NCBI GenBank assembly: GCA_964472785.1
Contig: CAYYMH010000004.1
Coordinates: 66,995 to 130,994, forward strand
Reading direction: 5' to 3'
DNA: 64,000 bases
Source of the DNA: an uncultured Cytophagia bacterium
GTDB lineage: Bacteria > Zhuqueibacterota > Zhuqueibacteria > Thermofontimicrobiales > Thermofontimicrobiaceae
Positions 1,265-22,576 of this stretch are shown here, in pieces. The notes below the pieces were generated by a model. It had not been told where the DNA came from and did not search any database. It saw only the letters and a program-made list of their open reading frames with translations. A program made the position numbers and the translations under genes. How positions within the stretch are numbered: position 1 is the first letter of the stretch; the number at the start of each line of letters is the position of its first letter.

Positions 1265-1298
1265 CTTTAAATCCTTTGTCTGATTTTCAATATGTTCA

Positions 1299-2057
1299 TT
1301 AAGAGGGATTATTTTTTTGGTCATTCCGAGTTATCAATGGTACGATATAGCTATCTTCAAATGGTGAAGCATAATTCAATCCCAATTTTCGATAGACTGA
1401 AACCGGGATTCCAATATCTGCCAGAAATAAATGACCTGTTTTTCCTTTCAAAAGACCGAGCTTTGGCAATGCGAGAGTCATTGTCCAGCCTGAATGAATA
1501 AATTCCCCTAAAGCACTGCCGTCATTCGCATCGATTCCGGATGGTAAATCCAGCGACAGAATCGGCGCTCCTGCCTGATTCGCCCACTGAATTAATTCCA
1601 AAGTAATTCCCGTTGGCGGTCCTTTCAAACTGTAACCGATTAACGCATCGATAACAAAATCATACGAGTCGTCATTTAGCTGATAAGTACCAATTTCATG
1701 TCCGAACGTTGAATGAAATACTTTCCGTTGAAACGCAGTGACTTCCGCGAGCCCTGAAGCGTTTGTCAGACACAGATTCACCTGTGCGTTTCGGTTGGAA
1801 AGATGTCTGGCTGCACAAATGCCTCCACCACTATTCCCGCCTGTACCGGCTATTACTAAAATACGTGCTTTGTTCCAATGATCTCCCAGCAATTTAATTG
1901 TCAGCTCTGCCAAATTCCGACCAGCGTTCTCCATCATTTGAAATAAGTTCGGACCAGTCTGCTCCATAGCAATGCGATCAATTTCCTGCATTTGTCCAGC
2001 GCTAACTGCCGGGACGTGTATTCCTGTTTCTGTATAAAATTTTTGCATTTTGCTCAA
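1299..2057 (-). CDS. nnrE: NAD(P)H-hydrate epimerase (YjeF N-terminal domain)
   Basis: MMENAG, GTGGNSGGG, DALIGYSL, SLDLPSG and TLALPK motifs. Confidence 0.85.
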   Translation of the reverse strand: MSKMQKFYTETGIHVPAVSAGQMQEIDRIAMEQTGPNLFQMMENAGRNLAELTIKLLGDHWNKARILVIAGTGGNSGGGICAARHLSNRNAQVNLCLTNASGLAEVTAFQRKVFHSTFGHEIGTYQLNDDSYDFVIDALIGYSLKGPPTGITLELIQWANQAGAPILSLDLPSGIDANDGSALGEFIHSGWTMTLALPKLGLLKGKTGHLFLADIGIPVSVYRKLGLNYASPFEDSYIVPLITRNDQKNNPS

Positions 2058-2141: not shown

Positions 2142-3986
2142 TCAATCTTTTTTACCCAATGCCCGATCCAGGTTGAACGCTGCGCTGATTAACGCTAAAT
2201 GAGTAAACGCCTGCGGAAAATTACCCAATGCTTCACCACTGGCGCCAATTTCTTCGCCGTACAAACCGAGATGATTCGCATATCCCAACATTTTTTCAAA
2301 AATCAGCCGAGCCTCCTCCAGCCGATCGGAATCAAACCGACCCGCGCGTGACAATGCTTCCACCAGCCAGAACGAACAAATGGTAAACGTTCCTTCATCG
2401 CCTTTTAAGCCATCGGGCGCCTCTGTTACATCGTAACGGTAAACCAGACTGTTGGAAACCAGTCCGCCTTTTTCCGGAGATTGATTTATAGCGTTCAGAG
2501 TTTTAATCATCCTCGGATCGGTTGGCGACAGAAAGAATACCAGCGGCATCATTAAATTTGACGCATCCAAAGTATTGCTGCCATAGCTCTGTACAAACGC
2601 TTCACGATCCGGACTCCAACCTTTTTTCATAATTTCTTCATAGATTTCATCACGGCATTTTAGCCAGCGGTCATGATCGGCCGGAAAAGAACGTTTATTT
2701 GCAAGACGTATGGCTCGATCCACAGCCACCCAGCACATTAATTTTGAATAAACAAAATGTCTTTTCCCACCACGTACTTCCCAGATCCCCTCATCCTCCT
2801 TGTTCCAATTCTCACACACATAATTGACCAAACGTCGCAAAGATGTCCACATATCGTAGGAAATCGGACTACCATATTTATTGAACAGATAGACTGAGTC
2901 CATCAACTCACCGTAAATATCCAATTGTAATTGATTATAAGCGCCGTTACCGACACGAACCGGTTTTGATCCTTTGTAACCTTTGAGATGATCCAAAATT
3001 TCTTCTTTCAACTCGTGACGTCCGTCAATGCCATACATCAATTGCAGGGAACCGTCTGGGTTCATTTCTTTGGTTCTTTTTTCAATCCAATTCATAAAAT
3101 GTGCTGCTTCATCGGTGAAACCAATGCGAAGTAATCCATAAAGCGTAAATGCAGCATCCCGGATCCAAGTGTACCGATAGTCCCAATTCCGTTCTCCGCC
3201 GACGCTTTCCGGCAAACTACAGGTCGGCGCTGCGACAATCGCGCCTGTCGGTTCGTAGGTTAATAATTTCAATGTCAGAGCAGAGCGATGAACCATTTCC
3301 CGCCAGCGGCCTGTATAGGTACATTTTGATATCCATCGACGCCAGTAATCTACAGTTTCTGTGAATAGCTCGTGAACAGCATCATGTGACGGACACACGG
3401 GACATGATGCATTCGATTTTGCTTCTTCCAATACGAAAACAGCTTTTTCCCCTTCAGCTAAATCAAAATCCGCAGTAGCGCCACTTCCATCAGCCTTTAG
3501 AGAGACATCTGTTTTTAACCACAAGCTCAATTTTTCAGAATTAAAGTAAGCGCCGTTTTCACTGACCGTTAATTCATGTTGATCTCGGGCATAATTAAAC
3601 GCCGGATAACATGCAACGTTGAATGTCATTTTACCTCTAACCACGTTGACCAAACGTATCAATCTGTGGTGCTTTTGTTTCTCGCCTGTGTTTTCAACAG
3701 GCATAAAATCAGTAATTTCAGCCACACCATCGGAACAAAGAAATCGGCTAATGAGCACATTTGTTTCGGGCCAATAAAATTGTTTGTATGTTACCTTTTC
3801 CCGTTTCAGCGAAATTTGAAAAAACCCGCCCTTTTCGTCATCCAGAATCGAAGCGAAAATACTGGGCGAGTCAAAATGCGGAAAGCATAACCAGTCAATT
3901 GAACCATTTATTCCGACCAAAGCCAGGGTGTGCATATCCCCGATGATACCATAATTTTCGATGGGTTGGTAAGCCATTTTTAACAT
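2142..3986 (-). CDS. Glycoside hydrolase family 15 (glucoamylase/trehalase-like)
   Basis: [27 protein letters not shown] and [13 protein letters not shown] motifs; N-terminal [21 protein letters not shown]. Confidence 0.93.
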
Positions 3987-5239: not shown

Positions 5240-5986
5240 TTAAATAAATGCCTTGAGTTCACTCCCTGCGGCTTCATCCACATACCAATCCAAAATGCCA
5301 GATTTTGGATTGACACACGCTGCCGGTAACGCGTTAATCTCTTTTTTCGAAATCAAAATTTTATTTACTAATTCTCTTTTCCTTTTCCCTGTAACGAGAA
5401 ATGACACCCGCTTTGCTTGATTGATGGTTTTTAAAGTCAGCGAAATCCTCTTTTGTCCTGTTAACGGGTGTTGAGTTACGGTGGTTATATTCTGGTTATT
5501 AAATTCGTTTTTTGAATTCGGAAAAATTGAAGCGGTATGTCCATCCTCTCCCATGCCTAAAAAAATCCAGTCAAATTGCGGTACCTCGTCACGATTCTTT
5601 GGGGCGATACGATCAACTAACCGATGATAACGAGTGGCCTCTGTCTCAGGATCATTTTCCCCTTTGATCCGGTAGATATTTCTTTCAGGAATATTAGTTT
5701 GATTGAGCAGAGTTTTCTCGGTCATCCCATAATTGCTCTCTGCATCTTCGGGTGGTACGCAGCGTTCATCACCCCAAAAAAATTGGACATATTTCCAGCA
5801 GATATGATCGTTCATGTCACGTTCGACCAACGCCTTAAAAAACTGTTGGGGCGTCGATCCCCCAGAAATTGCAATAAACATTGCTTGCTCATTAGCCGCG
5901 AAATCATTCACTTTTTTTTGAAATTCAATTGCTAACGACTCGGCTAATTCATTAGCCGATTTGAATATTTTTATCTGTGGTTTCAT
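5240..5986 (-). CDS. pgl: 6-phosphogluconolactonase
   Basis: ISGGSTP, FWGDERCV and LGMGEDGHTASIFP motifs; likely start ATG 5986, right after the zwf stop. Confidence 0.93.
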   Translation of the reverse strand: MKPQIKIFKSANELAESLAIEFQKKVNDFAANEQAMFIAISGGSTPQQFFKALVERDMNDHICWKYVQFFWGDERCVPPEDAESNYGMTEKTLLNQTNIPERNIYRIKGENDPETEATRYHRLVDRIAPKNRDEVPQFDWIFLGMGEDGHTASIFPNSKNEFNNQNITTVTQHPLTGQKRISLTLKTINQAKRVSFLVTGKRKRELVNKILISKKEINALPAACVNPKSGILDWYVDEAAGSELKAFI

Positions 5987-5987
5987 G

Positions 5988-7523
5988 CTATAGTTTGCAA
6001 TATCCTTTGTCTTCTGTTTTGCTCTCACAGGGAAAATGCCAATCTTCATCTGCTTCATCAATCAGATTTCCGGCTTCTTTTGGTCCCCACGATCCTGCCG
6101 GATAGCCATACAATTCAATGTCAGGATTTTTCTCCCAGGCATCCAAAATCGGTGTGATAAATTCCCAACATGCTTCAACAGCATCAGCCCGGGCATATAA
6201 AGTTGGATCACCCAACAAACAATCCAGCAACAAACGCTCATACGCTTCCGGCAACGATTTTCCTCCCAGATCAGCATAGTGAAAATCCATATCAACCGCC
6301 TGAATATTAAATCCGGCTCCCGGTACCTTCATACCAAATTTAAGCGAAATTCCCTCATCCGGCTGAATGCGAATAATCAATTGATTGTCTGTAATTTGAC
6401 ATTCAGACTCTTTTTTGAATAAAGAATGCGGTGTTTTTTTGAAATGAATGACGACTTCAGTGACACGATCCGGCAGCCGTTTTCCAGTGCGAATATGAAA
6501 GGGGACATCGCCCCAACGCCAGTTATCAATAAAGAATTTCATCGCGACAAATGTCTCTGTTCGTGAATCAGAAGGCACATTTTCTTCTTCCCGATAACCT
6601 GCAATCTGATCCCCATTAATCTTTGATGAAACATATTGTCCGCGAACGACTTGCCTGGGTACATTTTCCATTTTTATAGGGCACAAAGCCTGAAAATTTT
6701 TTACCTTCTCATTTCTCACCGAATTTGCCTCGAATTTAACCGGCGGTTCCATGGCAATCGTAGCAACGACCTGTAAGAGATGATTTTGAACCATATCCCG
6801 CAGCGCTCCTGCTCCGTTATAATATTTGCCTCGCTTTTCCACACCTATAGACTCTGCTGCGGTAATCTCGATGTGATGTATATAATTTCGATTCCACAGC
6901 GGTTCAAAAATACCATTTGCAAAACGCAGCGCCAAGATATTTTGAACAGTCTCTTTACCCAAATAATGGTCAATTCTGTAAATCTGACGTTCATCAAAAT
7001 TTTTTAATAACTTCCTGTTCAGTTCTTTAGCCGTATTTAAATTATATCCAAATGGTTTTTCCAGTACGATGCGCTTCCTCCCGTGATCCTCATCCTGTTT
7101 GTTCAAACCAACTTTTGCCAGATTATCACCGATCGTTCCAAATAATGACGGCGTTGTTGACAGGTAATAAATGAAGTTACCTTCACTTTGATAATCGCTA
7201 TCCAGTTGTGTGAGTTTTGATTTTAACTTTTTAAAATCATCGAGATTTTTAGAGTCAGCTACTGTATAATAAATATTTTTCAAAAATTTACCCCGAAAAT
7301 CGTCGCTGACTCCAGTATTTTTGTAGAATTGTTTTAGTGAGCCTTCCATCGATTCACGGAATGATTCATCACTAAAATTTGTCCGACCGGTTCCGACAAC
7401 CGCGAATTGTTCCGGTAATAAATCCCTTAAATATAAATCAAACAACGCGGGCATCAGTTTTCTCTTTGTTAAGTCCCCGGATGCACCAAAAATAACAATG
7501 ATCGAATTTTCTGGTTTTTGCAT
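5988..7523 (-). CDS. zwf: Glucose-6-phosphate 1-dehydrogenase
   Basis: GASGDL and RIDHYLGKE motifs; GAGG Shine-Dalgarno before ATG 7523. Confidence 0.97.
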   Translation of the reverse strand: MQKPENSIIVIFGASGDLTKRKLMPALFDLYLRDLLPEQFAVVGTGRTNFSDESFRESMEGSLKQFYKNTGVSDDFRGKFLKNIYYTVADSKNLDDFKKLKSKLTQLDSDYQSEGNFIYYLSTTPSLFGTIGDNLAKVGLNKQDEDHGRKRIVLEKPFGYNLNTAKELNRKLLKNFDERQIYRIDHYLGKETVQNILALRFANGIFEPLWNRNYIHHIEITAAESIGVEKRGKYYNGAGALRDMVQNHLLQVVATIAMEPPVKFEANSVRNEKVKNFQALCPIKMENVPRQVVRGQYVSSKINGDQIAGYREEENVPSDSRTETFVAMKFFIDNWRWGDVPFHIRTGKRLPDRVTEVVIHFKKTPHSLFKKESECQITDNQLIIRIQPDEGISLKFGMKVPGAGFNIQAVDMDFHYADLGGKSLPEAYERLLLDCLLGDPTLYARADAVEACWEFITPILDAWEKNPDIELYGYPAGSWGPKEAGNLIDEADEDWHFPCESKTEDKGYCKL

Positions 7524-7696
7524 GTTATTCCTCAATTTACGGATCGACTATTTGTAACAATCAGAACATTTTCTTTGCCACAAAGACCCCAAGACTCAAA
7601 GTTACACAAAGAAATACATATTTAAAAATGTTCTATTCTAACAGTCTAATTTGCTTTTTTTGTATCTTCGAAACTTCAGGGCTGAACAGGAACCGA

Positions 7697-8386
7697 CTAT
7701 TTTTTTAAACAAGTTACTCCTTTTTTGCCGGCAATAATCACCTCATCTGCCATCCCTAAAAACAAGCCGTGTTCCACAATCCCGGCTCGATACTTTAAAA
7801 TCGAACTTAATTCATAATAGTCTAAATTTCCTGAGGCATGAAAATCAAGAATAAAATTTCCCTGATCAGTTTTAAAAACAGCTCCATTTTTATTCGTTCG
7901 AATTGTCACCTGATGACCAATGGTTTCAAGGTATTTTTTACTCGCTAAGTATCCAAATGGAACAACCTCAACCGGTATCGGTGATTTTTTCCCTAACTCG
8001 TTTACCAATTTTGTCTCATCAACAGCGACAAGAAAGCGTTCGCTGCTTTGAGCTAATATTTTTTCTCGTAACAGCGCCCCTCCACCCCCTTTTATTAAAT
8101 TCAAATCACGATCCACTTCATCAGCCCCATCAATCGTTAAATCAATTTGCGGATATTTGTCCATGTTGCTCAAATGAATTCCAAATTCTTGAGCGAATCT
8201 TTCGGTCTGTTTTGAACTGGGGATTCCGACAATCGATTTTAATTCTCCCTCACGAATTCTTTTCCCTAATTCGCGCAGCATAAAAAAGACCGTACTTCCA
8301 GATCCCAAACCGAGAATCATCCCGGATTTTACATAATCCAGCGACTTAATCGCTGCCTGTTTTTTATAAGTATCGACATTATTCAT
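7697..8386 (-). CDS. rpiA: Ribose-5-phosphate isomerase A
   Basis: GLGSGST, DGADE and KGGGGALLREKI motifs. Confidence 0.96.
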   Translation of the reverse strand: MNNVDTYKKQAAIKSLDYVKSGMILGLGSGSTVFFMLRELGKRIREGELKSIVGIPSSKQTERFAQEFGIHLSNMDKYPQIDLTIDGADEVDRDLNLIKGGGGALLREKILAQSSERFLVAVDETKLVNELGKKSPIPVEVVPFGYLASKKYLETIGHQVTIRTNKNGAVFKTDQGNFILDFHASGNLDYYELSSILKYRAGIVEHGLFLGMADEVIIAGKKGVTCLKK

Positions 8387-8414: not shown

Positions 8415-9143
8415 TTATTTTAAAAATTCTCCCGCTACCTTCATCAGGTGTTTAGGATTTTCCACGATCCACTTTTTATCAATAATATTGCTTTCAACTA
8501 TTGCCTGTTTTGTAAATTCATTGGTTACCACAATCGTCTTCATCCCTGCGTTTTTTGCCGCCTTAACACCATTGAGCGAATCTTCAATAACCAGGCAATG
8601 TGTTGGTTTGACATCTAACTCGTCTGCCACTAATTGATAAATTTCAGGATCGGGCTTACCTGCCGATACATCATCACGCGTCGCGATAAATTCAAAAAAA
8701 TCAGCCAAAGCCAGAATTTGCAAAACTTTCTTTGTCTGCTCGCAGTGGGACATGGTTGCCAGTCCGGTTTTCAATCCTTTTGATCGTACTATTTTGAGCA
8801 GATTCATATTATAGGGACAAAGATATTTTTTCATCAATTTCGTATCATTGAGAAACGTTTGGTAAATTTTTAATCTGACCTGAACGAATGCCTGCCAAGC
8901 CGTTTTGACGCCAAATTCTTCCATTCTTTTTTCGGCTGCACTTTTCAAATTAAACTTATTCATCAAATGGAGGGCAACCTCCTTCCGCGAAAGCCCAACG
9001 ACATTTTTAAATTCGGCAATGATTTCTGATTCATTGAGTTTACTTTCTGATAAGTGCATTGCTGCTTCGGCGTATGATTTTGCTTTTAATATTTCCGTCT
9101 GAACCAGCGTTCCGTCCAGATCAAATATTACCGCTTCAATCAT
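8415..9143 (-). CDS. HAD-superfamily phosphatase (beta-phosphoglucomutase-like, subfamily IA)
   Basis: DLDGT, KPDP and EDS motifs; start overlaps the upstream stop by 4 nt. Confidence 0.88.
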   Translation of the reverse strand: MIEAVIFDLDGTLVQTEILKAKSYAEAAMHLSESKLNESEIIAEFKNVVGLSRKEVALHLMNKFNLKSAAEKRMEEFGVKTAWQAFVQVRLKIYQTFLNDTKLMKKYLCPYNMNLLKIVRSKGLKTGLATMSHCEQTKKVLQILALADFFEFIATRDDVSAGKPDPEIYQLVADELDVKPTHCLVIEDSLNGVKAAKNAGMKTIVVTNEFTKQAIVESNIIDKKWIVENPKHLMKVAGEFLK

Positions 9144-9997
9144 AATACAATTTCTCCAATCGTCAATATTGCCACAAAAAAGAACAGGAAGCCAAGCCCC
9201 TTTTCCAAATAATGTTGTGGAATTTTCCTCGATAGCACTGAACCGAGCTGCGCACCAATAATGACTCCCGGCACACTAAATATCACAATATTAAACACTG
9301 TTTGCAATGTGGCTTCGCCATACGTCACAAATTTATAAAAATGTCCGATCGACGCCAGGAGTACGGTAACCGAGATTACAAAAACACTGGTTGCGACTGA
9401 AACGGCACTGGGAACCCGGCAGCGTTGGAGTAAAAAATAACCGTTTAGTTCACCAAGTCCAGTCGAAATCATTCCCACAAATAAGCCGCCGATGCCAGCA
9501 ATAAACCTGCCCTGATTTTTATTGCAAACCGTATAGCATATTTTTTCATTATCCTTTGTAATCAAACACGTTTCCGCTTTTTCTCCGCCATAGTCTTTTT
9601 CTATTTGCTCATCCAACAACTTCACCAGGTGAGGCTTCGGCGAACGCAGAAAACTGGCTGATACAGCAAACAAACCCATGCCAAATATTGCTTTCAAGAC
9701 ATCTGCTTCGATCGCGCCCGATGCCCAGGTACCAATCAACGCCAACGGAACCGTACCCATCAACAGCGCCAGTCCCAACTTATAATCAATTAATTTTTTG
9801 TGCGCGTAAGCGTAAAATCCACTGGCAAAACCAAAGACTTCTGTAATCAGACCAGTGCCGATCGCAATTTCAGGTGATAGCCGCAAGCCCAGCATAAAGA
9901 ATGGAGCAAAAAACGTAGCTCCGCCGACACCGGACGCCATGGCAATAGTGGCAAATAGTAAAGAAGCTGGAAACACAAACCAATATTCGAACGTCAT
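9140..9997 (-). CDS. Sulfite exporter TauE/SafE family membrane protein
   Basis: GVGGATFFAP and STGLGE repeats; about 8 hydrophobic segments; GAQLGS motif. Confidence 0.85.
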   Translation of the reverse strand: MTFEYWFVFPASLLFATIAMASGVGGATFFAPFFMLGLRLSPEIAIGTGLITEVFGFASGFYAYAHKKLIDYKLGLALLMGTVPLALIGTWASGAIEADVLKAIFGMGLFAVSASFLRSPKPHLVKLLDEQIEKDYGGEKAETCLITKDNEKICYTVCNKNQGRFIAGIGGLFVGMISTGLGELNGYFLLQRCRVPSAVSVATSVFVISVTVLLASIGHFYKFVTYGEATLQTVFNIVIFSVPGVIIGAQLGSVLSRKIPQHYLEKGLGFLFFFVAILTIGEIVL

Positions 9998-10055
9998 TTA
10001 CTGTTCCTATTTTTTATTTCATTCGATCCGCCTTTACCGCACCTGTTTATTGGAA

Positions 10056-11495
10056 CTATTTTCCAATTATTTTTCTCACAAACTTCACCACCGCATTATC
10101 AGTTAATCGCGCCGCAAAAGCCTGAGTTGCGGGTCGCTTTACCATGTCACCATAGGTCGGATAAATATGGATCATCTTCTGAATTTTGTGAAATGGGATG
10201 CCCAGAGATTTCGCAAGCTGGGCTTCATGCAAAAGATCAGCCGCGCGCTCACCGATAATATGAATACCGAGCAGATTTCCACCTTTGCCAACAACAAACT
10301 TGCTCATTCCCGTAGTCTCCAAATCAGTTTTTGCCCGATCAACTTTCTCATAATTGAATGTGTAAACTTTGACTTTTTTACCGTATTTTTCCCGGGACTC
10401 CTGTTCGGTTAAGCCAGCATGAGCAAACTCAGGATCAGTAAAAGTTGACCACACAATATTTTCGTAATTTACTTTTCGTTTGATCGGTAACGGTAAAACT
10501 GCATTCGGTACAGCAATGCCAGCGTGGTATTCAGCAATATGGCTGAACTGATAAGACCCGATGACATCGCCCAAAGCATAAATATTTTTCGCAGTCGTGC
10601 GCAATGTTTGATCCGTTTTAATTCCTTTTTGGGAATATTCCACACCGGCATTCTCCAAATCCAATCCATCCACATTGGGTCGCCTGCCCACTGCAATCAG
10701 CACGTTGTCAGCCTCAATCTCTTTATCATTACCATTTTGATTGTTTTTTACGGAAACAACAACCTTGTCTCCCTTTTTTGCAAGCGCCATTGCTCTGGAT
10801 TGGGTCAAAAATTCGACCCCATCGTCAACCATTCGATCCATGAGAATTTTAACTAATTCACGGTCTTCCCGAGAAAGGATGTGGTCAGTCATTTCAACTT
10901 GAGTGACTTTTACACCCAACCGGCTTAGTGCAGATGCCATCTCGGTTCCGATGGGTCCGCCGCCAATAATGATGATGGATTCAGGAAGTTTGTCCAGTTC
11001 AAAAATATTTTCATTGGTTAAATATGGGACGTCTTCTATCCCCTCAATAGGCGGAACAAAAGGACTGGACCCGGTTGAAATGATAAATTTATTTGAAGAA
11101 ATCGTCTGGTCACCAATTTTCAAATGGTGATTATCGATAAATTTTGGAGATCCAATAAATACGTTAATCCCCATGTCTTCAAACACTTCAGGCTTCTCTT
11201 CCTCGTACACCTGCTCGCGAATTTTCCGAACATGCGCCATCACATTGTCCGTATTTAATTCCATCTTTCCAGCAACTGTTAACCCGTATTTTTCGAGTTT
11301 CTTTACATGATCGGCAATCTCACTGGATTTGATTAACGCCTTGCTGGGCACACATCCGTACCAGGTACAATCCCCACCTATTTTTTTCTTTTCAATAAAA
11401 GCAACTTTTTTCCCCAATCTATTTCCAAGTATCGCTGAACTGATTCCTCCAGAACCCGCTCCGATAACCGTTAAATCATAGTCATAGTTAGCCAT
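10056..11495 (-). CDS. Class I pyridine nucleotide-disulfide oxidoreductase (MerA/Lpd-like, no metal-binding C-terminal CC)
   Basis: GAGSGG, redox-active GGDCTWYGCVPSK, GGGPIG and HIYPT motifs; no HMA domain and no terminal Cys-Cys. Confidence 0.88.
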   Translation of the reverse strand: MANYDYDLTVIGAGSGGISSAILGNRLGKKVAFIEKKKIGGDCTWYGCVPSKALIKSSEIADHVKKLEKYGLTVAGKMELNTDNVMAHVRKIREQVYEEEKPEVFEDMGINVFIGSPKFIDNHHLKIGDQTISSNKFIISTGSSPFVPPIEGIEDVPYLTNENIFELDKLPESIIIIGGGPIGTEMASALSRLGVKVTQVEMTDHILSREDRELVKILMDRMVDDGVEFLTQSRAMALAKKGDKVVVSVKNNQNGNDKEIEADNVLIAVGRRPNVDGLDLENAGVEYSQKGIKTDQTLRTTAKNIYALGDVIGSYQFSHIAEYHAGIAVPNAVLPLPIKRKVNYENIVWSTFTDPEFAHAGLTEQESREKYGKKVKVYTFNYEKVDRAKTDLETTGMSKFVVGKGGNLLGIHIIGERAADLLHEAQLAKSLGIPFHKIQKMIHIYPTYGDMVKRPATQAFAARLTDNAVVKFVRKIIGK

Positions 11496-11509
11496 TTCAA
11501 AACTCCTAT

Positions 11510-11815
11510 TTACGTTTCATTTTCATCATTTATTTTTTTAAATTCCCAAATCATCGGTACAATCATCATAATCATCAAAGCGACAACCGTGCTAATTAAA
11601 AAGCTCAAACCTAAAGAAATATCAGTAACAAGTAGAAAATGTAAAAACCTTTCTGCAGCCACGAACAATCCTATTAGCACGACAACTGCAAAAAGCCAGT
11701 TGCGAAATCGAATTTGATTTCCGCAGGAAGGACAAGTAAATTTACCCCAATTATCCCAACCTTTGATAATAGAAACCGGTCCGATTTTCATTCCACATTC
11801 AGGACATTTACCCAT
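11510..11815 (-). CDS. Small membrane protein with an N-terminal zinc-ribbon (CPEC...CPSC)
   Basis: Two CxxC pairs then two hydrophobic helices; GGAG Shine-Dalgarno before ATG 11815. Confidence 0.7.
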   Translation of the reverse strand: MGKCPECGMKIGPVSIIKGWDNWGKFTCPSCGNQIRFRNWLFAVVVLIGLFVAAERFLHFLLVTDISLGLSFLISTVVALMIMMIVPMIWEFKKINDENET

Positions 11816-11842
11816 TTTTATCTCCAATATTTAATTATTCAA

Positions 11843-12019
11843 TGTTTGAACGAAAACTCTAATTTTTGTCATTTTGAGGAGTACCTCGTCAAGCTCGGCA
11901 TAAACTCCACCACGAAAAATCTCATCCCACTAAGTGCTTGTCTATGTTAGGCTTATTGGTGTGAAATTCTTCATCCGCCGAAGGCGGATTCAGAATGACA
12001 TTTTGTTTTCGTTTAATCA
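11843..12019. repeat. REP doublet (TGTCATTYTGA...TCAGAATGACA) inside imperfect outer inverted repeats
   Basis: TGTCATTTTGA 11867-11877 and TCAGAATGACA 11990-12000; hairpin ATCCGCCGAAGGCGGAT; outer TGTTTGAACGAAAAC 11843-11857 vs GTTTTCGTTTAATCA 12005-12019 (13/15 match). Confidence 0.65.
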
Positions 12020-12070
12020 TTACTTATCAATTTCATAAAGTTAATTCATAACTTCCCATCTAATATAAAA

Positions 12071-12781
12071 CTACATTCGTTCGGGAACAGGCGTTTTTAT
12101 ATTCTTCCGTTTTTTAATTTTTTTAAAAATTGTCGGTATGAACATAAGTAAAATGAATATTCCCAACGCAACAAAAAACTGCACGGAAATGATGTTATCT
12201 AAAGAACTACCAAGCATCGCATTAATGAAGCCGCCAGGAGCCATTCCAATAAATGAAGCAATGAAAAAGTCTCGAAATTTAATTTTCGAAAGTCCGGCTC
12301 CAAAGTTTACTGCATCGTATTGAAAAAGAGGAATCAATCGCATGAAGATCATCATTCGAAATCCGTTTTTTTCGATGCTATCATCGAATGATTTGATACG
12401 CCCTTTGTGAAGCCATTCAAAATGTTCGATAAATTTTCTGCCGAAAACCCGGGCGATCATAAACGAAAGTGATGCACCCAAGGTCGCCCCTATTAAAATA
12501 TAAATCGTTCCGAACCACTTTCCAAAAGCCAAACCACCTGCGAGTGACATGACTCCGACAGGAATCACAAGCACTGCACCGCGAAGCGCATAAATGACCA
12601 TAAAAACGATCGGCGCCCAGATACCAAAACTTAAAATGAAATCACGAATTTTTTCAGGTTTGAAGTCCGATATTTTCAAAGGTGTTAATCTGAATACAAT
12701 CGCTATGATTGCTATAATTGCCATCAGTATCAGAATCCTGATCCATTTATTCATTTTATTACCGCTATCTTGTTGTTCCAT
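12071..12781 (-). CDS. TVP38/TMEM64 (DedA/VTT, SNARE-associated) membrane protein
   Basis: LAGGLAFG, GATLGASLSF and MRLIPLFQYDAVNFGAG motifs. Confidence 0.9.
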   Translation of the reverse strand: MEQQDSGNKMNKWIRILILMAIIAIIAIVFRLTPLKISDFKPEKIRDFILSFGIWAPIVFMVIYALRGAVLVIPVGVMSLAGGLAFGKWFGTIYILIGATLGASLSFMIARVFGRKFIEHFEWLHKGRIKSFDDSIEKNGFRMMIFMRLIPLFQYDAVNFGAGLSKIKFRDFFIASFIGMAPGGFINAMLGSSLDNIISVQFFVALGIFILLMFIPTIFKKIKKRKNIKTPVPERM

Positions 12782-12831
12782 CGTATTACTCCGTATGAGT
12801 TATTTTTGAATAGTCATATTAAATACTATTT

Positions 12832-13524
12832 TCATTTTCCCAAATCTACATACTTGGTATTTGGATTATCCAACTTCCATTGTCTCCACGTGGTCAACGT
12901 TGACGGAATTTCATCGACGACCTGATCCGCGTACAAACCGCTGATACAAACAAGCGGCGTGCTTCCTTCTTTGAAATTCACATACGGATACCATATACTT
13001 TCGGTCTGATGATCGTACAGTAAAAACGTTCTCTCATAAGTCCACCCACTGGGAGCAAAGGTTAATGTTTCGCCTTCAATGTCACGGCTGTACACGACAG
13101 CCAAATTTTCCAGCGGTCAGTAATTAACCGAAACATTAAGCCCGCCAATTCTATCGTTCACAACTTCATGGCTCGCCAATATCTGCACAGGATAAGCCCT
13201 CACATCATCATTAATATTTACTCCAATGACAGAAATTCCAGAATTGTCACTGGGGTATCCATTCATCCCTTCAGATATGACTTGCGGGAAATTAATTGGC
13301 TGAATTGCATTCGGACCAAGTCCATAATTAAATTTTCCCGGCTCTAATCCGTACTCTTTCACCGCATGGGTAATATCCCATTCTTTACCAGTTCTGTCAG
13401 TAATTGTGACCTGATTATTGGTATCATCCTCTGTTATGTCAGAATTTGTGCTACTTTTATTTTTACAGGACTGTGCGATCAAAACAACTAAAGTAATGAT
13501 CAAAAACATTTTGAATAATTTCAT
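12832..13524 (-). CDS. DUF3179 (seleno)lipoprotein, 230 aa, with Sec at codon 136 (joins two track ORFs across an in-frame TGA)
   Basis: Track ORFs 13117-13524 and 12832-13104 are in the same frame, separated only by TGA CCG CTG GAA AAT. Read-through gives VSVNY-U-PLENLAVVYSR, matching the DUF3179 VTYCPL motif. Downstream SGWTY...YDHQTESIW matches the family. Lipobox-like IAQSC. Confidence 0.85.
13086..13119 (-). promoter_or_regulatory. Bacterial SECIS-like element
   Basis: mRNA reads UGA, 14 nt, then GGCUGU-CGUGU-ACAGCC: a perfect 6-bp stem with G then U in the apical loop, the loop starting 20 nt after UGA. Confidence 0.7.
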
Positions 13525-13543
13525 CTGATTTTCTCCTTAATAA

Positions 13544-14260
13544 TTAAGCTTTAAATGAAAATTCCCGTTCAAATAATTTTTTTAAAATCGTATACGTTTT
13601 TTTCTTATAAAAAAATTGATGTTCTAAATTGCGTCTTTTCAGATGCTCCCACAAAGCGACTAAATCATCATAGGTATCGATATCATATTTCATTTCCAAT
13701 TGGGCAATTTCCAAATCTTTTTTTTGTGCACAATTTATTGTTTGCTGAAACACAATACTCGTGCTCCAATCGATATATTTGAACAATACCGGATAAAATT
13801 TAGTCGAACCGATCAAATAATAACCTCCGTCGTTAGCAAGCCCTAAAACGATATCGTTCTCATCCAATGCCGTAAAGCCGCGAATAATTGTGGTTTTATC
13901 CAAAGTCGGAATATCACTCCCGATCAACAATACCTTTTCGTAACCTTCATCAAAAATTTCACGCATGGCATTGGACATTTTTTCTCCCAGATCACGACCG
14001 TGCTGCTGATAATAATCCAAATCATCTCCCAGCCAATTTTTGATCATCTCATCAGCATGAGACGGTGTGTAAAACCATTTGACATCACAAAACTTGACAT
14101 CTTTGAACAGTTCAGCCAAATCCTCAACCATTGCCTGATATAATTCCAGCGACTCCTCCGGCGCTAATTGGGGTTGAAGCCGGGTTTTTACATTGCCGTA
14201 CTCTGGTGCTTTTATAAATATAATTAATGCATTATTTTTTTTTGATGTTGTGCCATTCAT
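13544..14260 (-). CDS. TIGR04282-type transferase (DUF2064, GT-A-like; 'rSAM/selenodomain-associated transferase 1')
   Basis: FIKAPEYGNVKTRL, QHGRDLGEKM, LIGSDIP, LGLANDGGYYLIG and DIDT..DL motifs. Confidence 0.88.
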   Translation of the reverse strand: MNGTTSKKNNALIIFIKAPEYGNVKTRLQPQLAPEESLELYQAMVEDLAELFKDVKFCDVKWFYTPSHADEMIKNWLGDDLDYYQQHGRDLGEKMSNAMREIFDEGYEKVLLIGSDIPTLDKTTIIRGFTALDENDIVLGLANDGGYYLIGSTKFYPVLFKYIDWSTSIVFQQTINCAQKKDLEIAQLEMKYDIDTYDDLVALWEHLKRRNLEHQFFYKKKTYTILKKLFEREFSFKA

Positions 14261-14368
14261 AATTTAAACACCTTATCTTCAGTCTGTATTGTAATAAAAT
14301 ACAATTATTATGGTTGTCAATCAGAATTTACAATTAGACTTTTATTTGAACCAATAGTATTTATATTT

Positions 14369-14902
14369 TTAATTGACAAAAAAAGCAGATTCCAATCTGC
14401 GCCCTGCCTTGATTACTCTTTTAGATGCATCATCAACCAGAAAGTTGCTTGAGTTTACCTCCGTATTGTTTAAAACAAGCTTATTTACATCAATAGGCTC
14501 TGAAAAAGAATGAATCAGTCTTTCAACTTTTTGGATGGCTTTCTCAATTGCAGTCTTTATGTCAGGCTCACTGAGCGGGCTTTGCAGATAAACTTCCGCC
14601 ATTTGCTGGCATTCATTGAAAATTTCTGTGGCAGGTTTTGGCGTGACGCCTGAATTCTCAAGTAATTTTAATGTATCATATTCATAGCGAATCTGATTTT
14701 TTAGGTGCATTTGGCTGCCGGTATTCAGCCGCAGGACTGACCTTAATGACGGTGCTCGAAGCAGAAAATTAATATTGTATTTACCCTGAGCCAAAAATTC
14801 GACAGTCATGTCTTCGGATTTTTTAACGCCAAATATTTCTTTTATCTCGCTTAATTTCGTGTATTCCCAAGCAATTAATAAAAAGTGATTTTCATTTCCC
14901 AT
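14369..14902 (-). pseudogene. Truncated aminoglycoside-phosphotransferase-like kinase remnant
   Basis: Has N-lobe FLAQGKYNINF...RLNTGSQMHLKNQIRYEY and a Brenner-like NTEVNSSNFLV, but only 177 aa: the middle region seems deleted and there is no downstream DWE-type motif. Confidence 0.55.
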
Positions 14903-14964
14903 AATTATCCACGTTTTTTTTAAATGAAAAGTATCATCTATTTTATTTTTCGCAGAGATGAAAA

Positions 14965-14987
14965 TGCCATTGAAGCGGTCAATGGCA
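14965..14987. repeat. Intergenic perfect hairpin TGCCATTGA-AGCGG-TCAATGGCA
   Basis: 9-bp perfect inverted repeat; REP-like or terminator-like. Confidence 0.45.
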
Positions 14988-15108
14988 AATTGAATTCTTT
15001 ATTTAAATCCGATTGAAATTTTGAAACATAGAAAATTTTGTATTTCGAATTGAATGCCTCAAACGTTAAAAAATATTTTTCACCAAATCCTTGCTGATAG
15101 CTAATCGC

Positions 15109-15798
15109 TTACTTAAATTCATACCACTGGGCCAACGTATCCGGTGAAAAACCTAATTTGTAACCAATCTGCAATAGCCAATTTCTGAATAAATTCTTCG
15201 CTTTGCCCTCTTCAATCCAGCGGCGTGCAGAGGTGTTAATCCTGTAAGGTAAAATAATGACATCCCCTTCTTTCTTCAGTCGACTGCAAAAATCCATGTC
15301 CTCCATGAGTGGAATCTCTTTGTAACCGCCAATTTTCTGAAATACATTCCGGCGAACAAAAATTCCCATATCCCCGTAGAACGTATTTAGTAAATGATTT
15401 TTTAAATTGGACATCACTTCCACAGTTCGAAAAAACCATCCCACCTCGTCCAGATTATACTCAAAAGCACCGCCAACAATGCGCTCGTTCAAAAATAACT
15501 TTTTAACAGCATTTATCGAATGTGGATGTGGGGTTACATCGGCGTGCAAAAACCATAAAATATCACCGGCAGCTAATTTTGCACCGGCATTCATTTGTGC
15601 ACCTCTGCCGCGTGGCGCCTGAATAACGTTGGCATATTTCTTGGCTATTTTTACCGTATCATCTGCGCTGTTTGCATCTGCGACTATAATTTCGAGGGTG
15701 CTATCCAACTGGTGCAAATAATGCAAAAGTGAACCGATGTTTTCCTCTTCATTCAACGTCGGAATAATCACTGATATTTTAATTTTGGATGTCGTCAT
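15109..15798 (-). CDS. TIGR04283-type GT2 glycosyltransferase ('rSAM/selenodomain-associated transferase 2')
   Basis: SVIIPTLNEEENI, RGAQMNAGA, WFLHAD, YGDMGIFVRR, PLMEDMDF and TSARRW motifs. Confidence 0.9.
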   Translation of the reverse strand: MTTSKIKISVIIPTLNEEENIGSLLHYLHQLDSTLEIIVADANSADDTVKIAKKYANVIQAPRGRGAQMNAGAKLAAGDILWFLHADVTPHPHSINAVKKLFLNERIVGGAFEYNLDEVGWFFRTVEVMSNLKNHLLNTFYGDMGIFVRRNVFQKIGGYKEIPLMEDMDFCSRLKKEGDVIILPYRINTSARRWIEEGKAKNLFRNWLLQIGYKLGFSPDTLAQWYEFK

Positions 15799-17912: not shown

Positions 17913-17934
17913 GGTAACGCTCCATTTTTGGTTG

Positions 17935-20920: not shown

Positions 20921-21084
20921 GATGTGCTCCTTTCGAAAATAATTACATTCAAAATTTAGTGAATCTTCTGCCACAATGTCTCGAAGACACCAAGAAAAAC
21001 GTTACTCCTTTTTTAACTTCGAGTCTTGGAGCCTTTGTGGCAAATAAAACTCTTGATAATTATAAACTTATTACAAATAAAAAT

Positions 21085-22364: not shown

Positions 22365-22576
22365 TATGACCTCCGTTAAATTTTTGATTACCAAACACTT
22401 TTTAAGAATCCGATAAATTGCCACAGATATTTTCATATAAACACGGATTTTAAAAAGTATCTATTACATTAAGTTTTTCAAATCATGATAAATCTGAAAA
22501 AATCCGTGTTAGTCCGTGGCAGGAAAAAAAGTGTTCGGCTGTGAGTTGAATTATCAGATTTTTTCGAAAAACACAA

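What the first reader, a model, noticed from the sequence alone, without database searches (positions are those of the whole stretch)
8415..15798. TIGR04283/TIGR04282 transferase cluster with a selenoprotein, disulfide reductase, DedA/TVP38, TauE and HAD, but no radical SAM ArsS or ArsM
The two transferases are usually described with the radical SAM enzyme ArsS (arsenosugar-related, 'rSAM/selenodomain-associated'). Here they flank a kinase remnant and sit with a Sec-lipoprotein, a TVP38 membrane protein, a Zn-ribbon membrane protein, a MerA-like reductase, a TauE exporter and a HAD phosphatase, and they run directly into rpiA-zwf-pgl. DUF3047, which I recall as a frequent neighbour of these genes, lies at 593-1264. 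Inference: an uncharacterised pathway for glycosylating, reducing and exporting a chalcogen or metalloid (S/Se/As) compound, fuelled by NADPH and pentose phosphates.
Basis: inference. Interest (0 to 1): 0.6.

Follow-up and report, generated by a model that had tools for sequence, protein, structure and literature searches.

The report
ArsS-less "arsenosugar" transferase gene cluster
Genes that databases label as arsenic-sugar synthesis sit here without the arsenic-specific enzymes but with a membrane protein, a disulfide reductase and a selenium-containing lipoprotein, so the set probably has a wider, still unknown job at the cell envelope.

Summary
TIGR04283 and TIGR04282 flank a truncated APH-type kinase and are followed by a Sec-containing DUF3179 lipoprotein, a VTT/TVP38 protein, a Zn-ribbon membrane protein, a MerA-like flavoprotein disulfide reductase, TauE, HAD and rpiA-zwf-pgl. 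The 93.5%-complete assembly shows no ArsS, ArsM, TIGR04169 or DUF547.

Lacking ArsS is not unusual. In a phylum sample, 27 of 42 TIGR04282-positive genomes lack it. Two genomes of the same family carry the same cluster with TIGR04169-ArsS-DUF547 in the slot where the window has the kinase remnant.

Partners that recur across phyla, several of them joined by gene fusions:
- TIGR04283
- VTT plus a disulfide reductase (flavin type or HdrD-like)
- DUF547
- DUF3047
- DUF3179
- an FA_hydroxylase-family gene

The Zn-ribbon protein, TauE and GH15 recur within the phylum. HAD and the pentose-phosphate genes are shared only with the closest relative.

Best reading: an ArsS-less, partly eroded member of a conserved, uncharacterised, membrane-spanning pathway that cannot make arsenosugars by the known route. 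Its substrate is unknown. The NADPH/pentose fuelling and the export role have no comparative support.

The parts
15109..15798 (-). TIGR04283-family GT2 glycosyltransferase, intact
   Evidence: NCBIfam 246.7 bits (cut-off 182), full-length match 8-226; Pfam Glycos_transf_2. 58-67% identical to the orthologues in G001, G013, G012, G088 and G062.
14369..14902 (-). Remnant of an APH/choline-kinase-type kinase (pseudogene). It occupies the slot that holds TIGR04169-ArsS-DUF547 in G013 and G003.
   Evidence: No Pfam or NCBIfam hit. 40% identical to the 335-aa APH of G001, with internal gaps and loss of the C-terminal half. The sequence is identical in a contig of run X2.
13544..14260 (-). TIGR04282 / DUF2064, CofC-like nucleotidyltransferase, intact
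   Evidence: 208.9 bits (cut-off 134); all 29 invariant columns of a 14-sequence alignment are present. The closest solved structure is the uncharacterised 3cgx.
12832..13524 (-). Short-form DUF3179 lipoprotein with selenocysteine (U136; TGA at 13117-13119)
   Evidence: Two Pfam DUF3179 half-matches join across the TGA. The TGA aligns with the family's invariant Cys of the CPL motif and is kept in G013, G012, G003 and L070. N-terminus carries the LIAQSC lipobox. selA, selB, two selD and tRNA-Sec are in the genome.
13086..13102 (-). SECIS-like hairpin 14 nt after the UGA (6-bp stem, loop CGUGU)
   Evidence: The hairpin is conserved in three orthologues; its third pair is C-G here and G-C there (change on both sides). 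The 73-nt fold is no more stable than shuffles (z 0.03).
12071..12781 (-). VTT/TVP38-type DedA membrane protein, no cysteine
   Evidence: Pfam VTT_dom 100.1 bits; sequence. 72-76% identical in G001, G012, G003, G088 and G062. Fused to the reductase in L082, to Fe-S/CCG domains in L090, L108, L116 and L127, and to the Zn-ribbon protein in G062.
11510..11827 (-). Zn-ribbon (CPEC...CPSC) protein with two TM helices; accessory of VTT
   Evidence: TIGR04104 32.6 bits, below the cut-off of 45; sequence. Present in G001, G003 and G088, and as the C-terminal part of the VTT ORF in G062.
10056..11495 (-). NF004991-like flavoprotein disulfide reductase ('MerA-like'), not MerA
   Evidence: NF004991 442.8 bits (cut-off 620); MerA 376.6 (cut-off 454.45). 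Has the CTWYGC redox pair but no C-terminal Cys pair. 46-61% identical to reductases next to TIGR04282 in other phyla. Matches of 57% identity or more occur only in genomes that have TIGR04282 or ArsS.
9140..9997 (-). TauE/SafE-family permease
   Evidence: Pfam 117.3 bits. Follows the reductase also in G001 and G088, 77% identical in each. Not seen in the 80 loci from other phyla.
8415..9143 (-). HAD-IA phosphatase; 4-base overlap with TauE; shared only with G001
5240..8386 (-). rpiA (7697-8386), zwf (5988-7535), pgl (5240-6061): ordinary oxidative pentose-phosphate genes lodged inside the cluster in G000 and G001 only
   Evidence: Equivalog scores are above their cut-offs. Absent from the corresponding clusters of G012, G088 and G062.
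2142..3986 (-). GH15 / trehalase-like glycoside hydrolase; possible member
   Evidence: Pfam GH15 + TREH_N. A 44%-identical copy lies inside the G062 cluster, and a GH15-DUF547 fusion lies in L070.
593..1324 (-). DUF3047, N-terminal signal or anchor, beta-jelly-roll
   Evidence: Pfam 198.8 bits. Present in 10 of 94 loci, mostly between the two transferases, and fused to the GT2 in L136. Model pLDDT 84.2; resembles CBM11, CBM61, GH11 and GH12. In G001, G012 and G062 it is followed directly by an FA_hydroxylase gene. In G000 that gene lies just outside the window (G000:C4:64516-65298), with transketolase between.

Best explanation
The locus is an ArsS-less, partly eroded member of a widespread, experimentally uncharacterised gene neighbourhood that spans the membrane.

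Core parts:
- A CofC-like nucleotidyltransferase (TIGR04282) and a GT2 transferase (TIGR04283).
- A TVP38-type VTT membrane protein, here with a Zn-ribbon accessory, coupled to an NAD(P)H-dependent disulfide reductase.
- Proteins with an N-terminal signal or anchor (DUF3179, here a selenoprotein; DUF3047; DUF547 in relatives).
- A membrane FA_hydroxylase-family enzyme.

Between the two transferases lies a variable 'feeder' slot. It holds TIGR04169 + ArsS in some relatives and an APH kinase in others. In this genome it holds only a dead kinase.

Inferred mechanism:
1. TIGR04282 activates a phosphorylated small molecule with an NTP.
2. TIGR04283 transfers it to an acceptor at the inner face of the membrane.
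3. VTT moves the product or its carrier across the membrane, and the tethered reductase keeps a thiol, disulfide or metalloid centre reduced.
4. The proteins that carry an N-terminal signal or anchor act on it outside.

HAD and the pentose-phosphate genes are a lineage-specific insertion, not part of the system.

Shown: gene content, absences, conservation, fusions and Sec. Inferred: every catalytic step and the membrane topology.
For: Content and absences.

Same cluster with ArsS in the same family:
- G013: T04283-TIGR04169-ArsS-DUF547-T04282-DUF3179(Sec).
- G003: the same order, running on to VTT and the Zn-ribbon protein over two abutting contigs.
- G001 has APH-DUF547 in the slot.
- The family's TIGR04282 sequences group together (SH-aLRT 94), with ArsS-linked G013 nested inside (quick tree).

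Phylum sample of 113 genomes:
- TIGR04282 in 42, ArsS in 17, both in 15.

94 loci:
- T04283 56, VTT 24, reductase 19, ArsS 15, DUF547 11, DUF3047 10, DUF3179 8, APH 5, FA_hydroxylase 5.

Fusions:
- DUF2064+GT2, DUF2064+ArsS, GT2+DUF3047, reductase+VTT and Fe-S/CCG+VTT.
- VTT+Zn-ribbon.
- GH15+DUF547.

Other support:
- Reductase matches of 57% identity or more occur only in genomes with TIGR04282 or ArsS (6 full-length plus 1 partial).
- DUF3179 lies within 5 kb of TIGR04282 in 11 of 42 positive genomes, in two families.
- G088 has T04283-DUF547-T04282-VTT-Znrib-reductase-TauE-FAhyd and no ArsS.
Against: - No function of any core component has been tested.
- No expression data are available.
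- The dead kinase, the missing DUF547 and the loss of DUF3179 in G001 may mean the system is decaying.
- 44 of 71 anchored loci from other phyla have neither ArsS nor VTT/reductase within six genes of TIGR04282, so the family sits in several contexts, for example the Poribacteria and most cyanobacteria.
- Many loci are cut by contig ends.
- Two terminator-like hairpins lie between T04283 and T04282, although such sites are no more frequent than in shuffles.
- The assembly is 93.47% complete, so ArsS could lie in the missing part.
- Kin are not independent: 8 of the 11 DUF3179 adjacencies come from one family.
Confidence: 0.55

Rival explanations
1. One reading: a dedicated pathway that glycosylates, reduces and exports a chalcogen or metalloid compound (S, Se or As). 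TauE is the exporter and zwf-pgl-rpiA supply NADPH and pentose phosphate.
For: - The reductase is an NAD(P)H-type disulfide reductase with a CxxxxC pair.
- A Sec protein is an integral partner.
- ArsS-containing versions of the same cluster exist, with ArsM-like methyltransferases beside them in L069, L128, L043 and L155.
- TauE recurs in G001 and G088.
- The wider region is rich in redox and NADPH genes: SOD, Prx, Grx, TrxR-like, rubrerythrin, transketolase and YjeF_N.
Against: - PPP genes and HAD are absent from the equivalent clusters of G012, G088 and G062.
- TauE was absent from all 71 anchored loci of other phyla.
- No As, Se or S activating enzyme lies in or near the cluster in this genome.
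- Sec in DUF3179 is catalytic or redox equipment, not evidence about the substrate.
Confidence: 0.15
2. A decaying relic. After ArsS (and then the kinase and DUF547) were lost, the remaining genes no longer form a working pathway and persist only by chance or for unrelated single-gene roles.
For: - orf177 is a truncated kinase and DUF547 is deleted.
- G001 keeps only the last 36 codons of DUF3179.
- The slot content differs in every genome of the family.
Against: - Both transferases score above their curated cut-offs over their full length.
- The TGA-containing DUF3179 keeps its frame, and its SECIS-like hairpin carries a change on both sides of one pair.
- VTT, reductase and TauE are 66-81% identical to those of G001 and G088.
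- ArsS-less clusters of the same order occur in G088 and G012, and TIGR04282-VTT-reductase loci without ArsS nearby occur in other phyla (L079, L100, L144).
Confidence: 0.15
3. A low-molecular-weight thiol system. The transferases build a glycosylated thiol or its precursor, and the MerA-like enzyme is its dedicated disulfide reductase, by analogy with mycothiol or bacillithiol and their reductases. NADPH would come from the adjacent zwf.
For: - The reductase matches mycothione and glutathione reductase models (bit scores 274 and 309, both below their curated cut-offs) and has no MerA C-terminal cysteines.
- TIGR04283 is distantly like GpgS and MftF, which glycosylate small acceptors.
- A HAD phosphatase follows.
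Against: - No cysteine ligase or deacetylase was seen in any of the clusters examined.
- The reductase is replaceable by an HdrD-like domain fused to a membrane protein, which points to a membrane-bound substrate.
- HAD and zwf are not conserved with the cluster.
Confidence: 0.1
4. Two unrelated modules, the transferases and the VTT-reductase pair, that merely lie side by side.
For: No fusion joins a transferase directly to VTT or to the reductase. 44 of 71 loci have TIGR04282 without them.
Against: - VTT or the reductase lies within six genes in 23 of 71 anchored loci from many phyla.
- High-identity reductase orthologues occur only in genomes with TIGR04282 or ArsS.
- Gene order is conserved in G000, G001, G003, G012, G088 and G062.
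Confidence: 0.05

Closest known systems
NCBIfam 'arsenosugar biosynthesis' set: ArsS (TIGR04167), ArsM (NF038099), TIGR04282, TIGR04283, TIGR04169. Seen complete in the cyanobacterial locus L069 and, within this family, in G013 and G003.
   Same: Both transferases are bona fide members by curated score. Gene order around them is the same as in the ArsS-bearing relatives. VTT and the reductase also accompany the ArsS-bearing form (L069, L093, L128, G062).
   Different: ArsS, ArsM and TIGR04169 are not found in the genome. ArsS is the only enzyme of the set with a demonstrated reaction, the adenosylation of DMAs(III) to DDMAA (passages of PMC13598754). The slot holds a dead kinase. A Sec-DUF3179, TauE, HAD and PPP genes are added.
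COG0398 (TVP38-type) DedA proteins fused to pyridine nucleotide-disulfide oxidoreductase domains (passage of PMC10127716; function unknown)
   Same: A VTT-domain protein is paired with the same kind of flavoprotein. The fusion L082 is 51% identical to the window's reductase and 31% identical to its VTT.
   Different: Here they are separate genes with a Zn-ribbon membrane protein between them. COG membership of the window's VTT was not tested. The link to TIGR04282/04283 is not mentioned in the passages I read.
Mercuric reductase MerA
   Same: Same fold family, FAD/NAD(P)H domains and the N-terminal CxxxxC redox pair. The best solved relative is a MerA (5x1y, E 4.6e-71).
   Different: Below the MerA cut-off. 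It has no C-terminal Cys pair, no metal-binding N-terminal domain and no mer genes nearby.
DUF3179 predicted selenoprotein family (tables of PMC9312934 and PMC13188914: motif UxxC/T)
   Same: PF11376 member with Sec at the family's invariant Cys.
   Different: A short form of about 230 aa that lacks the C-terminal half. The motif is U-P-L-E (U-P-L-V or U-P-L-R in relatives), so there is no second Cys or Thr. It is a lipoprotein lying directly after TIGR04282.
Kinase - nucleotidyltransferase - transferase head-group pathways (such as LicA/LicC/LicD) and radical adenosylation followed by sugar processing (HpnH/HpnG). Both are recalled from general knowledge and come from no call.
   Same: The order of activities suggested by APH or ArsS, then TIGR04282, then TIGR04283.
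   Different: No sequence membership. The analogy is to the logic only.

Membership tests
Arsenosugar biosynthesis pathway (ArsM/ArsS route) | TIGR04283 and TIGR04282 above curated cut-offs | tested here: met
   246.7 against 182 and 208.9 against 134 bits
Arsenosugar biosynthesis pathway (ArsM/ArsS route) | Radical SAM ArsS (TIGR04167) in the genome | tested here: not met
   Best 38.6 bits against 300 in a 93.47%-complete assembly; tblastn with the G013 ArsS found nothing
Arsenosugar biosynthesis pathway (ArsM/ArsS route) | Arsenite methyltransferase ArsM | tested here: not met
   NF008823 best 49.5 against 263; NF038099 best 22.7 against 400
Arsenosugar biosynthesis pathway (ArsM/ArsS route) | TIGR04169 peroxidase-like partner | tested here: not met
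   Best 42.3 against 120 bits, on another contig
Arsenosugar biosynthesis pathway (ArsM/ArsS route) | Production of arsenosugars | not testable with these tools
   Needs As speciation in a culture or an expression host
Mercuric reductase MerA | TIGR02053 score above cut-off | tested here: not met
   376.6 against 454.45
Mercuric reductase MerA | C-terminal Cys pair for Hg(II) hand-over | tested here: not met
   The C-terminus holds no cysteine. That this feature defines MerA is recalled.
Mercuric reductase MerA | Redox-active CxxxxC | tested here: met
   C43-T-W-Y-G-C48; both Cys are invariant in 8 orthologues
Bacterial selenoprotein (DUF3179) | In-frame UGA at a position that is Cys in homologues | tested here: met
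   U136 aligns with the invariant Cys of the CPL motif in 4 Cys forms; TGA is kept in 4 further loci
Bacterial selenoprotein (DUF3179) | SECIS hairpin downstream of the UGA | tested here: inconclusive
   A conserved 6-bp hairpin 14 nt downstream with one change on both sides, but only four sequences, and the fold is no more stable than shuffles
Bacterial selenoprotein (DUF3179) | selA, selB, selD and tRNA-Sec in the genome | tested here: met
Bacterial selenoprotein (DUF3179) | Selenium in the protein | not testable with these tools
   Needs 75Se labelling or mass spectrometry
TVP38/DedA with a partnered disulfide reductase | VTT domain next to, or fused with, a PNDR | tested here: met
   VTT_dom 100.1 bits; the reductase lies two genes away; fused form in L082
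TVP38/DedA with a partnered disulfide reductase | Membership of subfamily COG0398 | not tested
   No COG models were available; NCBIfam gives only weak DedA and UptA hits
APH / choline-kinase-type kinase | Complete catalytic core, including the Mg-binding DWE segment | tested here: not met
   177 aa against 335-355 aa; alignment columns about 92-168 and everything after the catalytic loop are missing; no Pfam hit

The most novel reading that the evidence does not exclude
TIGR04282/TIGR04283, a VTT flippase-like protein, an obligatory disulfide reductase, DUF547, DUF3047, DUF3179 and an FA_hydroxylase form one undescribed envelope pathway found in many phyla. Its ancestral job is not arsenic handling. 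ArsS (with TIGR04169) and an APH kinase are alternative feeder modules that plug into the same slot. Each would deliver a 5-substituted ribose or similar sugar, which is nucleotide-activated and transferred to a membrane lipid. The Sec- or Cys-bearing DUF3179 would be a Rieske-like redox or metal protein that works on the product on the outer face. On this reading the 'arsenosugar glycosyltransferase' label is a special case of a general lipid head-group pathway.
Probability: 0.2. Interest if true: 0.75.

Novelty: new variant of a known kind. Interest (0 to 1): 0.45.

Why it matters
TIGR04282 and TIGR04283 are named 'arsenosugar biosynthesis' enzymes, and the label is already used as a marker of arsenic metabolism. 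Two papers do so in the passages I read: a soil metagenome survey (PMC11237643) and an Aromatoleum genome paper (PMC8801600). In my sample, most genomes that carry them have no ArsS.

The comparison gives a concrete parts list of recurrent neighbours, several of them joined by gene fusions, for a system that no paper I could find has studied. It ties in two open problems:
- what the TVP38-type DedA proteins fused to disulfide reductases do (raised in PMC10127716);
- which enzymes act after ArsS in arsenosugar and arsenolipid synthesis.

It also places a selenoprotein of unknown function, DUF3179, in a defined context.

The window itself is only one eroded example, so its own interest is moderate.

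Tried and rejected
- Complex prediction (reductase with the Zn-ribbon protein) was tried four times. The queue was full, then the tool was declared unavailable. Nothing was folded.
- No RNA holder was listed. All four holders are DNA runs of one microbial-mat study.
- Rfam found no match at E up to 0.1 in 1-23000.
- Promoter- and terminator-like sites are no more frequent than in shuffles, so operon limits rest on spacing only.
- Foldseek against the PDB gave no match at E up to 0.001 for the DUF3179 model.
- VIA-align gave only Z up to 6.7 to Rieske domains over residues 103-216. That is below the level the tool calls safe, so it is kept as a lead.
- The single-protein scan of genome contigs gave only 2 loci.
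- Single-linkage clustering of ORFs merged families through fusion proteins. I replaced it with seed-built HMMs.
- The careful tree did not finish, so the quick tree is used.
- dN/dS was considered and dropped, because orthologues are only 45-81% identical.
- A carotenoid (CruG) or hopanoid (HpnB) glycosyltransferase role was considered and dropped. The scores are about 30 bits against cut-offs of 379-600.

Full report
WHAT IS THERE

All genes between 1 and 22.4 kb lie on the minus strand. NCBIfam and Pfam scans of 27 ORFs give the following, in order of transcription.
- TIGR04283 GT2 transferase, 15109-15798: 246.7 bits, cut-off 182.
- orf177, 14369-14902: no family.
- TIGR04282/DUF2064, 13544-14260: 208.9 bits, cut-off 134.
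- Two half-matches to DUF3179, 13117-13524 and 12832-13104.
- VTT-domain protein, 12071-12781.
- A small CxxC...CxxC protein with two hydrophobic (TM-like) stretches, 11510-11827: TIGR04104 32.6 bits, below the cut-off of 45; sequence.
- A pyridine nucleotide-disulfide oxidoreductase, 10056-11495.
- TauE, 9140-9997.
- A HAD-IA hydrolase, 8415-9143.
- rpiA, zwf and pgl, all above their equivalog cut-offs.
- A glucose-1-dehydrogenase-like SDR, a GH15/trehalase-like hydrolase, YjeF_N, and DUF3047 at 593-1324.

orf177 is 40% identical to a 335-aa APH-family kinase that occupies the same position in relative G001. Aligned with three full-length homologues, it lacks about 70 columns of the N-lobe and hinge. 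It also lacks everything after the catalytic loop, including the conserved DWE segment. It is a remnant. A contig from another sample of the same study covers 14381-14830 with no difference, so the truncation is not an accident of one assembly.

WHAT IS MISSING

The assembly (116 contigs, 93.47% complete) has none of the following.
- ArsS: best 38.6 bits against 300.
- ArsM under either model: 49.5 against 263 and 22.7 against 400.
- TIGR04169: 42.3 against 120.
- DUF547: no match. The control genomes did not ring either, so tblastn is the better test.

The known entry to arsenosugars, ArsS adenosylating DMAs(III) to DDMAA (passages of PMC13598754), is therefore not available. The caveat is the unassembled 6.5%.

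THE SELENOPROTEIN

Read with TGA as Sec, the two DUF3179 halves make one 230-aa protein with an LIAQSC lipobox and U at residue 136.
- The same in-frame TGA stands in the orthologues of G013, G012 and G003, and in an unrelated MAG, L070.
- In a 9-sequence alignment it falls on the invariant Cys of the family's CPL motif.
- A 6-bp hairpin with loop CGUGU starts 14 nt after the UGA and is kept in the three orthologues. Its third pair is C-G here and G-C there. The 73-nt fold is no more stable than shuffles.
- selA, selB, two selD (one itself with a TGA) and tRNA-Sec are present.
- DUF3179 is already listed as a predicted selenoprotein family with motif UxxC/T (tables of PMC9312934 and PMC13188914). 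This short form reads U-P-L-E.

THE SAME CLUSTER IN THE FAMILY

I fetched 14 stretches around TIGR04282 matches in 13 relatives and compared them. Four of these 13 relatives belong to the same family.
- G013: Crp - orf - T04283 - TIGR04169 - ArsS - DUF547 - T04282 - DUF3179(Sec) - BioB-like radical SAM.
- G003, over two contigs that abut within DUF547: T04283 - TIGR04169 - ArsS - DUF547 - T04282 - DUF3179(Sec) - VTT - PD-(D/E)XK - Zn-ribbon.
- G001: T04283 - APH (335 aa) - DUF547 - T04282 - last 36 codons of DUF3179 - VTT - Zn-ribbon - reductase - TauE - HAD - rpiA - gnd - zwf - pgl, then YjeF_N - DUF3047 - FA_hydroxylase.
- G012: T04283 - T04282 - DUF3179(Sec) - radical SAM - VTT - reductase - aminotransferase - FMN reductase - full-length DUF3179 - DUF3047 - FA_hydroxylase.

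In the window's own genome the FA_hydroxylase lies 1.7 kb before the window start, after transketolase. Behind it come rubrerythrin, Prx, Grx, an FTR-beta-like gene and a TrxR-like gene.

The segment between the two transferases is thus a variable slot. It holds TIGR04169-ArsS, or APH, or nothing. The window holds the eroded APH form.

In a quick tree of 84 TIGR04282 domains, the five sequences of this family group together (SH-aLRT 94). The ArsS-linked G013 is nested as sister of G003 (98). The careful tree did not finish.

HOW COMMON IS THE ArsS-LESS STATE

- Among 41 relatives, TIGR04282 is in 14 and ArsS in 4, with both in 3.
- In a phylum sample of 113 genomes at least 90% complete, TIGR04282 is in 42 and ArsS in 17, with both in 15.
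- So 15 of 17 ArsS genomes have the transferase, but 27 of 42 transferase genomes have no ArsS.
- These counts include the unpublished genome G119, which is one of the 27.
- For five loci from other phyla that have no ArsS nearby, the genome holds ArsS elsewhere in 2 (G126, G127). It does not in 3 (G123, a single chromosome record, G124 and G125).

CONSERVED PARTNERS

A profile scan of one genome per species returned 80 loci from many phyla. I called ORFs in these, in 13 relatives' loci and in the window, 94 loci in all. The sub-cut-off paralogue L056 was left out. I labelled the ORFs with HMMs grown from seeds.

Loci with each family within the stretch held (up to 10 kb each side, many cut by contig ends):
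- T04283 56, VTT 24, reductase 19, ArsS 15, DUF547 11, DUF3047 10, DUF3179 8.
- APH 5, FA_hydroxylase 5, HAD 5, pgl 3.
- TauE 2, Zn-ribbon 2, zwf 2, rpiA 2.

My ORF picker recovered the anchor in 71 of the 80 loci from other phyla; 9 were dropped. Within six genes of the anchor in these 71:
- T04283 40, VTT 17, reductase 13, ArsS 11, DUF547 8, DUF3047 6.
- TauE, Zn-ribbon, zwf and rpiA 0.
- VTT or reductase without ArsS 16, with ArsS 7, ArsS alone 4, none of them 44.

Fusions tie the parts together (Pfam).
- DUF2064+GT2 in L089. Seven such ORFs by my labels, plus G045.
- DUF2064+radical SAM+DUF3641 in L090.
- GT2+DUF3047 in L136.
- Reductase+VTT in L082.
- 4Fe-4S+CCG (HdrD-like)+VTT in L090, L108, L116 and L127.
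- VTT+Zn-ribbon in G062.
- GH15+DUF547 in L070.

VTT is joined to two unrelated kinds of disulfide reductase. That is the strongest hint that reduction of a disulfide-like centre at the membrane is part of the system.

The window's reductase is 46-61% identical to those next to TIGR04282 in other phyla. In the 113 genomes, matches of 57% identity or more occur only in G001, G013, G088, G012 and G062, which all have TIGR04282. A partial match occurs in G007, which has ArsS.

DUF3179 is in 42 of the 113 genomes, often with in-frame TGA. By comparing the coordinates, it lies within 5 kb of TIGR04282 in 11 of the 42 positive genomes. Three are Sec short forms in this family. Eight are Cys full-length forms in family f6, where a YegS-type lipid kinase lies between.

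WITHIN-PHYLUM CHECKS

- G088 (another family, no ArsS): T04283 - DUF547 - T04282 - VTT - Zn-ribbon - reductase - TauE - FA_hydroxylase. TauE is 77%, VTT 75% and the reductase 66% identical to the window's.
- G062 (another class, with ArsS): T04283 - TIGR04169 - ArsS - T04282 - VTT/Zn-ribbon - Dus-like - GH15 (44% identical to the window's) - reductase - DUF3047 - FA_hydroxylase.
- G045: T04283+T04282 fusion - DUF547 - TIGR04169 - ArsS - orf - reductase - PHO4 - methyltransferase.

So the Zn-ribbon protein, TauE and GH15 recur within the phylum. HAD, rpiA, zwf, pgl, SDR and YjeF_N sit between TauE and DUF3047/FA_hydroxylase only in G000 and G001. I read them as a block lodged inside the cluster.

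PROTEIN FEATURES

- The reductase has the CTWYGC redox pair and no cysteine near the C-terminus. It falls below the MerA cut-off (376.6 against 454.45) and is closest to the NF004991 subfamily. It is a disulfide reductase of unknown substrate, not MerA.
- VTT contains no cysteine, so it is not a thiol relay of the DsbD kind.
- TIGR04282 keeps all invariant residues of a 14-sequence alignment. Its only solved relative is the uncharacterised 3cgx.
- TIGR04283 is distantly like dolichol-phosphate-mannose synthase and GpgS.
- DUF3179 was modelled from 9 sequences (pLDDT 85.9). It has no Foldseek match. VIA-align places residues 103-216 on Rieske domains (Z up to 6.7, below the tool's safe level). 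The invariant His119 and Sec136-Pro-Leu recall the two Rieske boxes; the Rieske box motifs are recalled. This is a lead only.
- DUF3047 (pLDDT 84.2) is a beta-jelly-roll like CBM11, CBM61, GH11 and GH12 (Foldseek E down to 1.8e-8, TM 0.45-0.53).
- DUF3047 and most DUF547 homologues start with a signal- or anchor-like segment.

HOW IT MOST LIKELY WORKS

Shown: the parts, their conservation, their fusions, the Sec residue and the absences.

Inferred:
1. TIGR04282 activates a phosphorylated compound with an NTP, as its relative CofC does.
2. TIGR04283 transfers it to an acceptor at the membrane.
3. The feeder slot supplies the compound, through ArsS chemistry or a kinase.
4. VTT moves the product or its carrier.
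5. The reductase, held at the membrane by fusion or perhaps by the Zn-ribbon protein, keeps a thiol, disulfide or metalloid centre reduced.
6. DUF3179, DUF3047 and DUF547 act outside.

The lipid flavour is circumstantial. It rests on VTT proteins being scramblases or flippases (PMC10127716), the FA_hydroxylase family, and the lipid kinase next to TIGR04282 in family f6. In this genome the feeder is dead, so either another enzyme feeds the transferases or the system is winding down.

LITERATURE

- TIGR04283 and DUF2064 occur in no paper of the library.
- TIGR04282 occurs in two, both of which take the arsenic label at face value (passages of PMC8801600 and PMC11237643).
- DUF3179 occurs in three, and only in selenoprotein tables in the two I read.
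- DUF3047 and DUF547 have no bacterial study.
- Searches for ArsS, arsenosugar and arsenolipid found no paper on the steps after DDMAA (listings and passages only).
- The fusion of COG0398 DedA with disulfide oxidoreductase domains is noted as unexplained (passage of PMC10127716).
- Supplementary files were not consulted.

LIMITS

- The genome is a metagenome bin from microbial-mat runs of one study, with no RNA run listed.
- Kin are not independent.
- Many loci are truncated.
- My ORF caller is crude.

Noticed in passing
G000:C4:55000-67600 (L149), just before the window start: Downstream on the same strand lies a run of redox genes: transketolase, FA_hydroxylase, rubrerythrin, CBS, Prx/AhpC, glutaredoxin, ferredoxin-thioredoxin-reductase-beta-like, FAD-linked oxidase, glyoxalase, GltD-like Fe-S flavoprotein and a TrxR-like reductase. 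With SOD at window 20192-20974, this makes about 35 kb rich in oxidative-stress and NADPH genes.
   Followed up: partly
window 17403-17960, 17935-18366, 18406-18966: Two paralogous secreted proteins carry a C-x4-CH motif (CSVAGCH and CAIAGCH), and a nitroreductase follows. The nitroreductase (63% identical) and one paralogue also follow T04283-T04282 directly in G020 of another family (L035).
   Followed up: partly
G000:C116 (L150 298-1284): A BioB/HydE-like radical SAM gene on a 1.7-kb contig is 48% identical to the one that follows DUF3179 in G013 and G012. So a radical SAM partner other than ArsS may belong to the family's cluster.
   Followed up: partly
L070 5262-7982: A 906-aa ORF joins a GH15/trehalase-like domain (phmmer E 2e-151 to the window's GH15) to a C-terminal DUF547. 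It stands beside T04283, T04282, the reductase and a Sec-DUF3179 in an unrelated MAG.
   Followed up: partly
phylum sample: DUF3179 genes with one to three in-frame TGA codons are very common in this phylum. There are dozens of matches, both full-length and short forms, and several genomes have five or more copies.
   Followed up: no
G000:C63:6030-6953 and C30:2831-3757: There are two selD genes. One has an in-frame TGA, so it is itself a selenoprotein. The other lies in a 742-aa open frame and is probably fused to another domain.
   Followed up: no
L047 10548-10655 (G001): Only the last 36 codons of DUF3179 survive between T04282 and VTT in G001, while the window keeps the gene but has lost DUF547. 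The two close relatives have eroded different parts.
   Followed up: yes
L144 7606-8472; L153 15835-17215 (G088): An ADP-ribosylglycohydrolase-family gene lies next to the FA_hydroxylase end of the cluster in two unrelated genomes. In G088 it is split into two ORFs.
   Followed up: no
window 12832-12840: The DUF3179 gene ends ...GGA AAA TGA AAA TAG. Its stop is itself a TGA, followed one codon later by TAG. Orthologues end differently (FMKP).
   Followed up: no
window 20192-20974 and 21147-22436: The Fe/Mn superoxide dismutase has a 62-residue N-terminal extension, so it may be exported. The 429-aa ORF upstream matches no Pfam or NCBIfam family.
   Followed up: no
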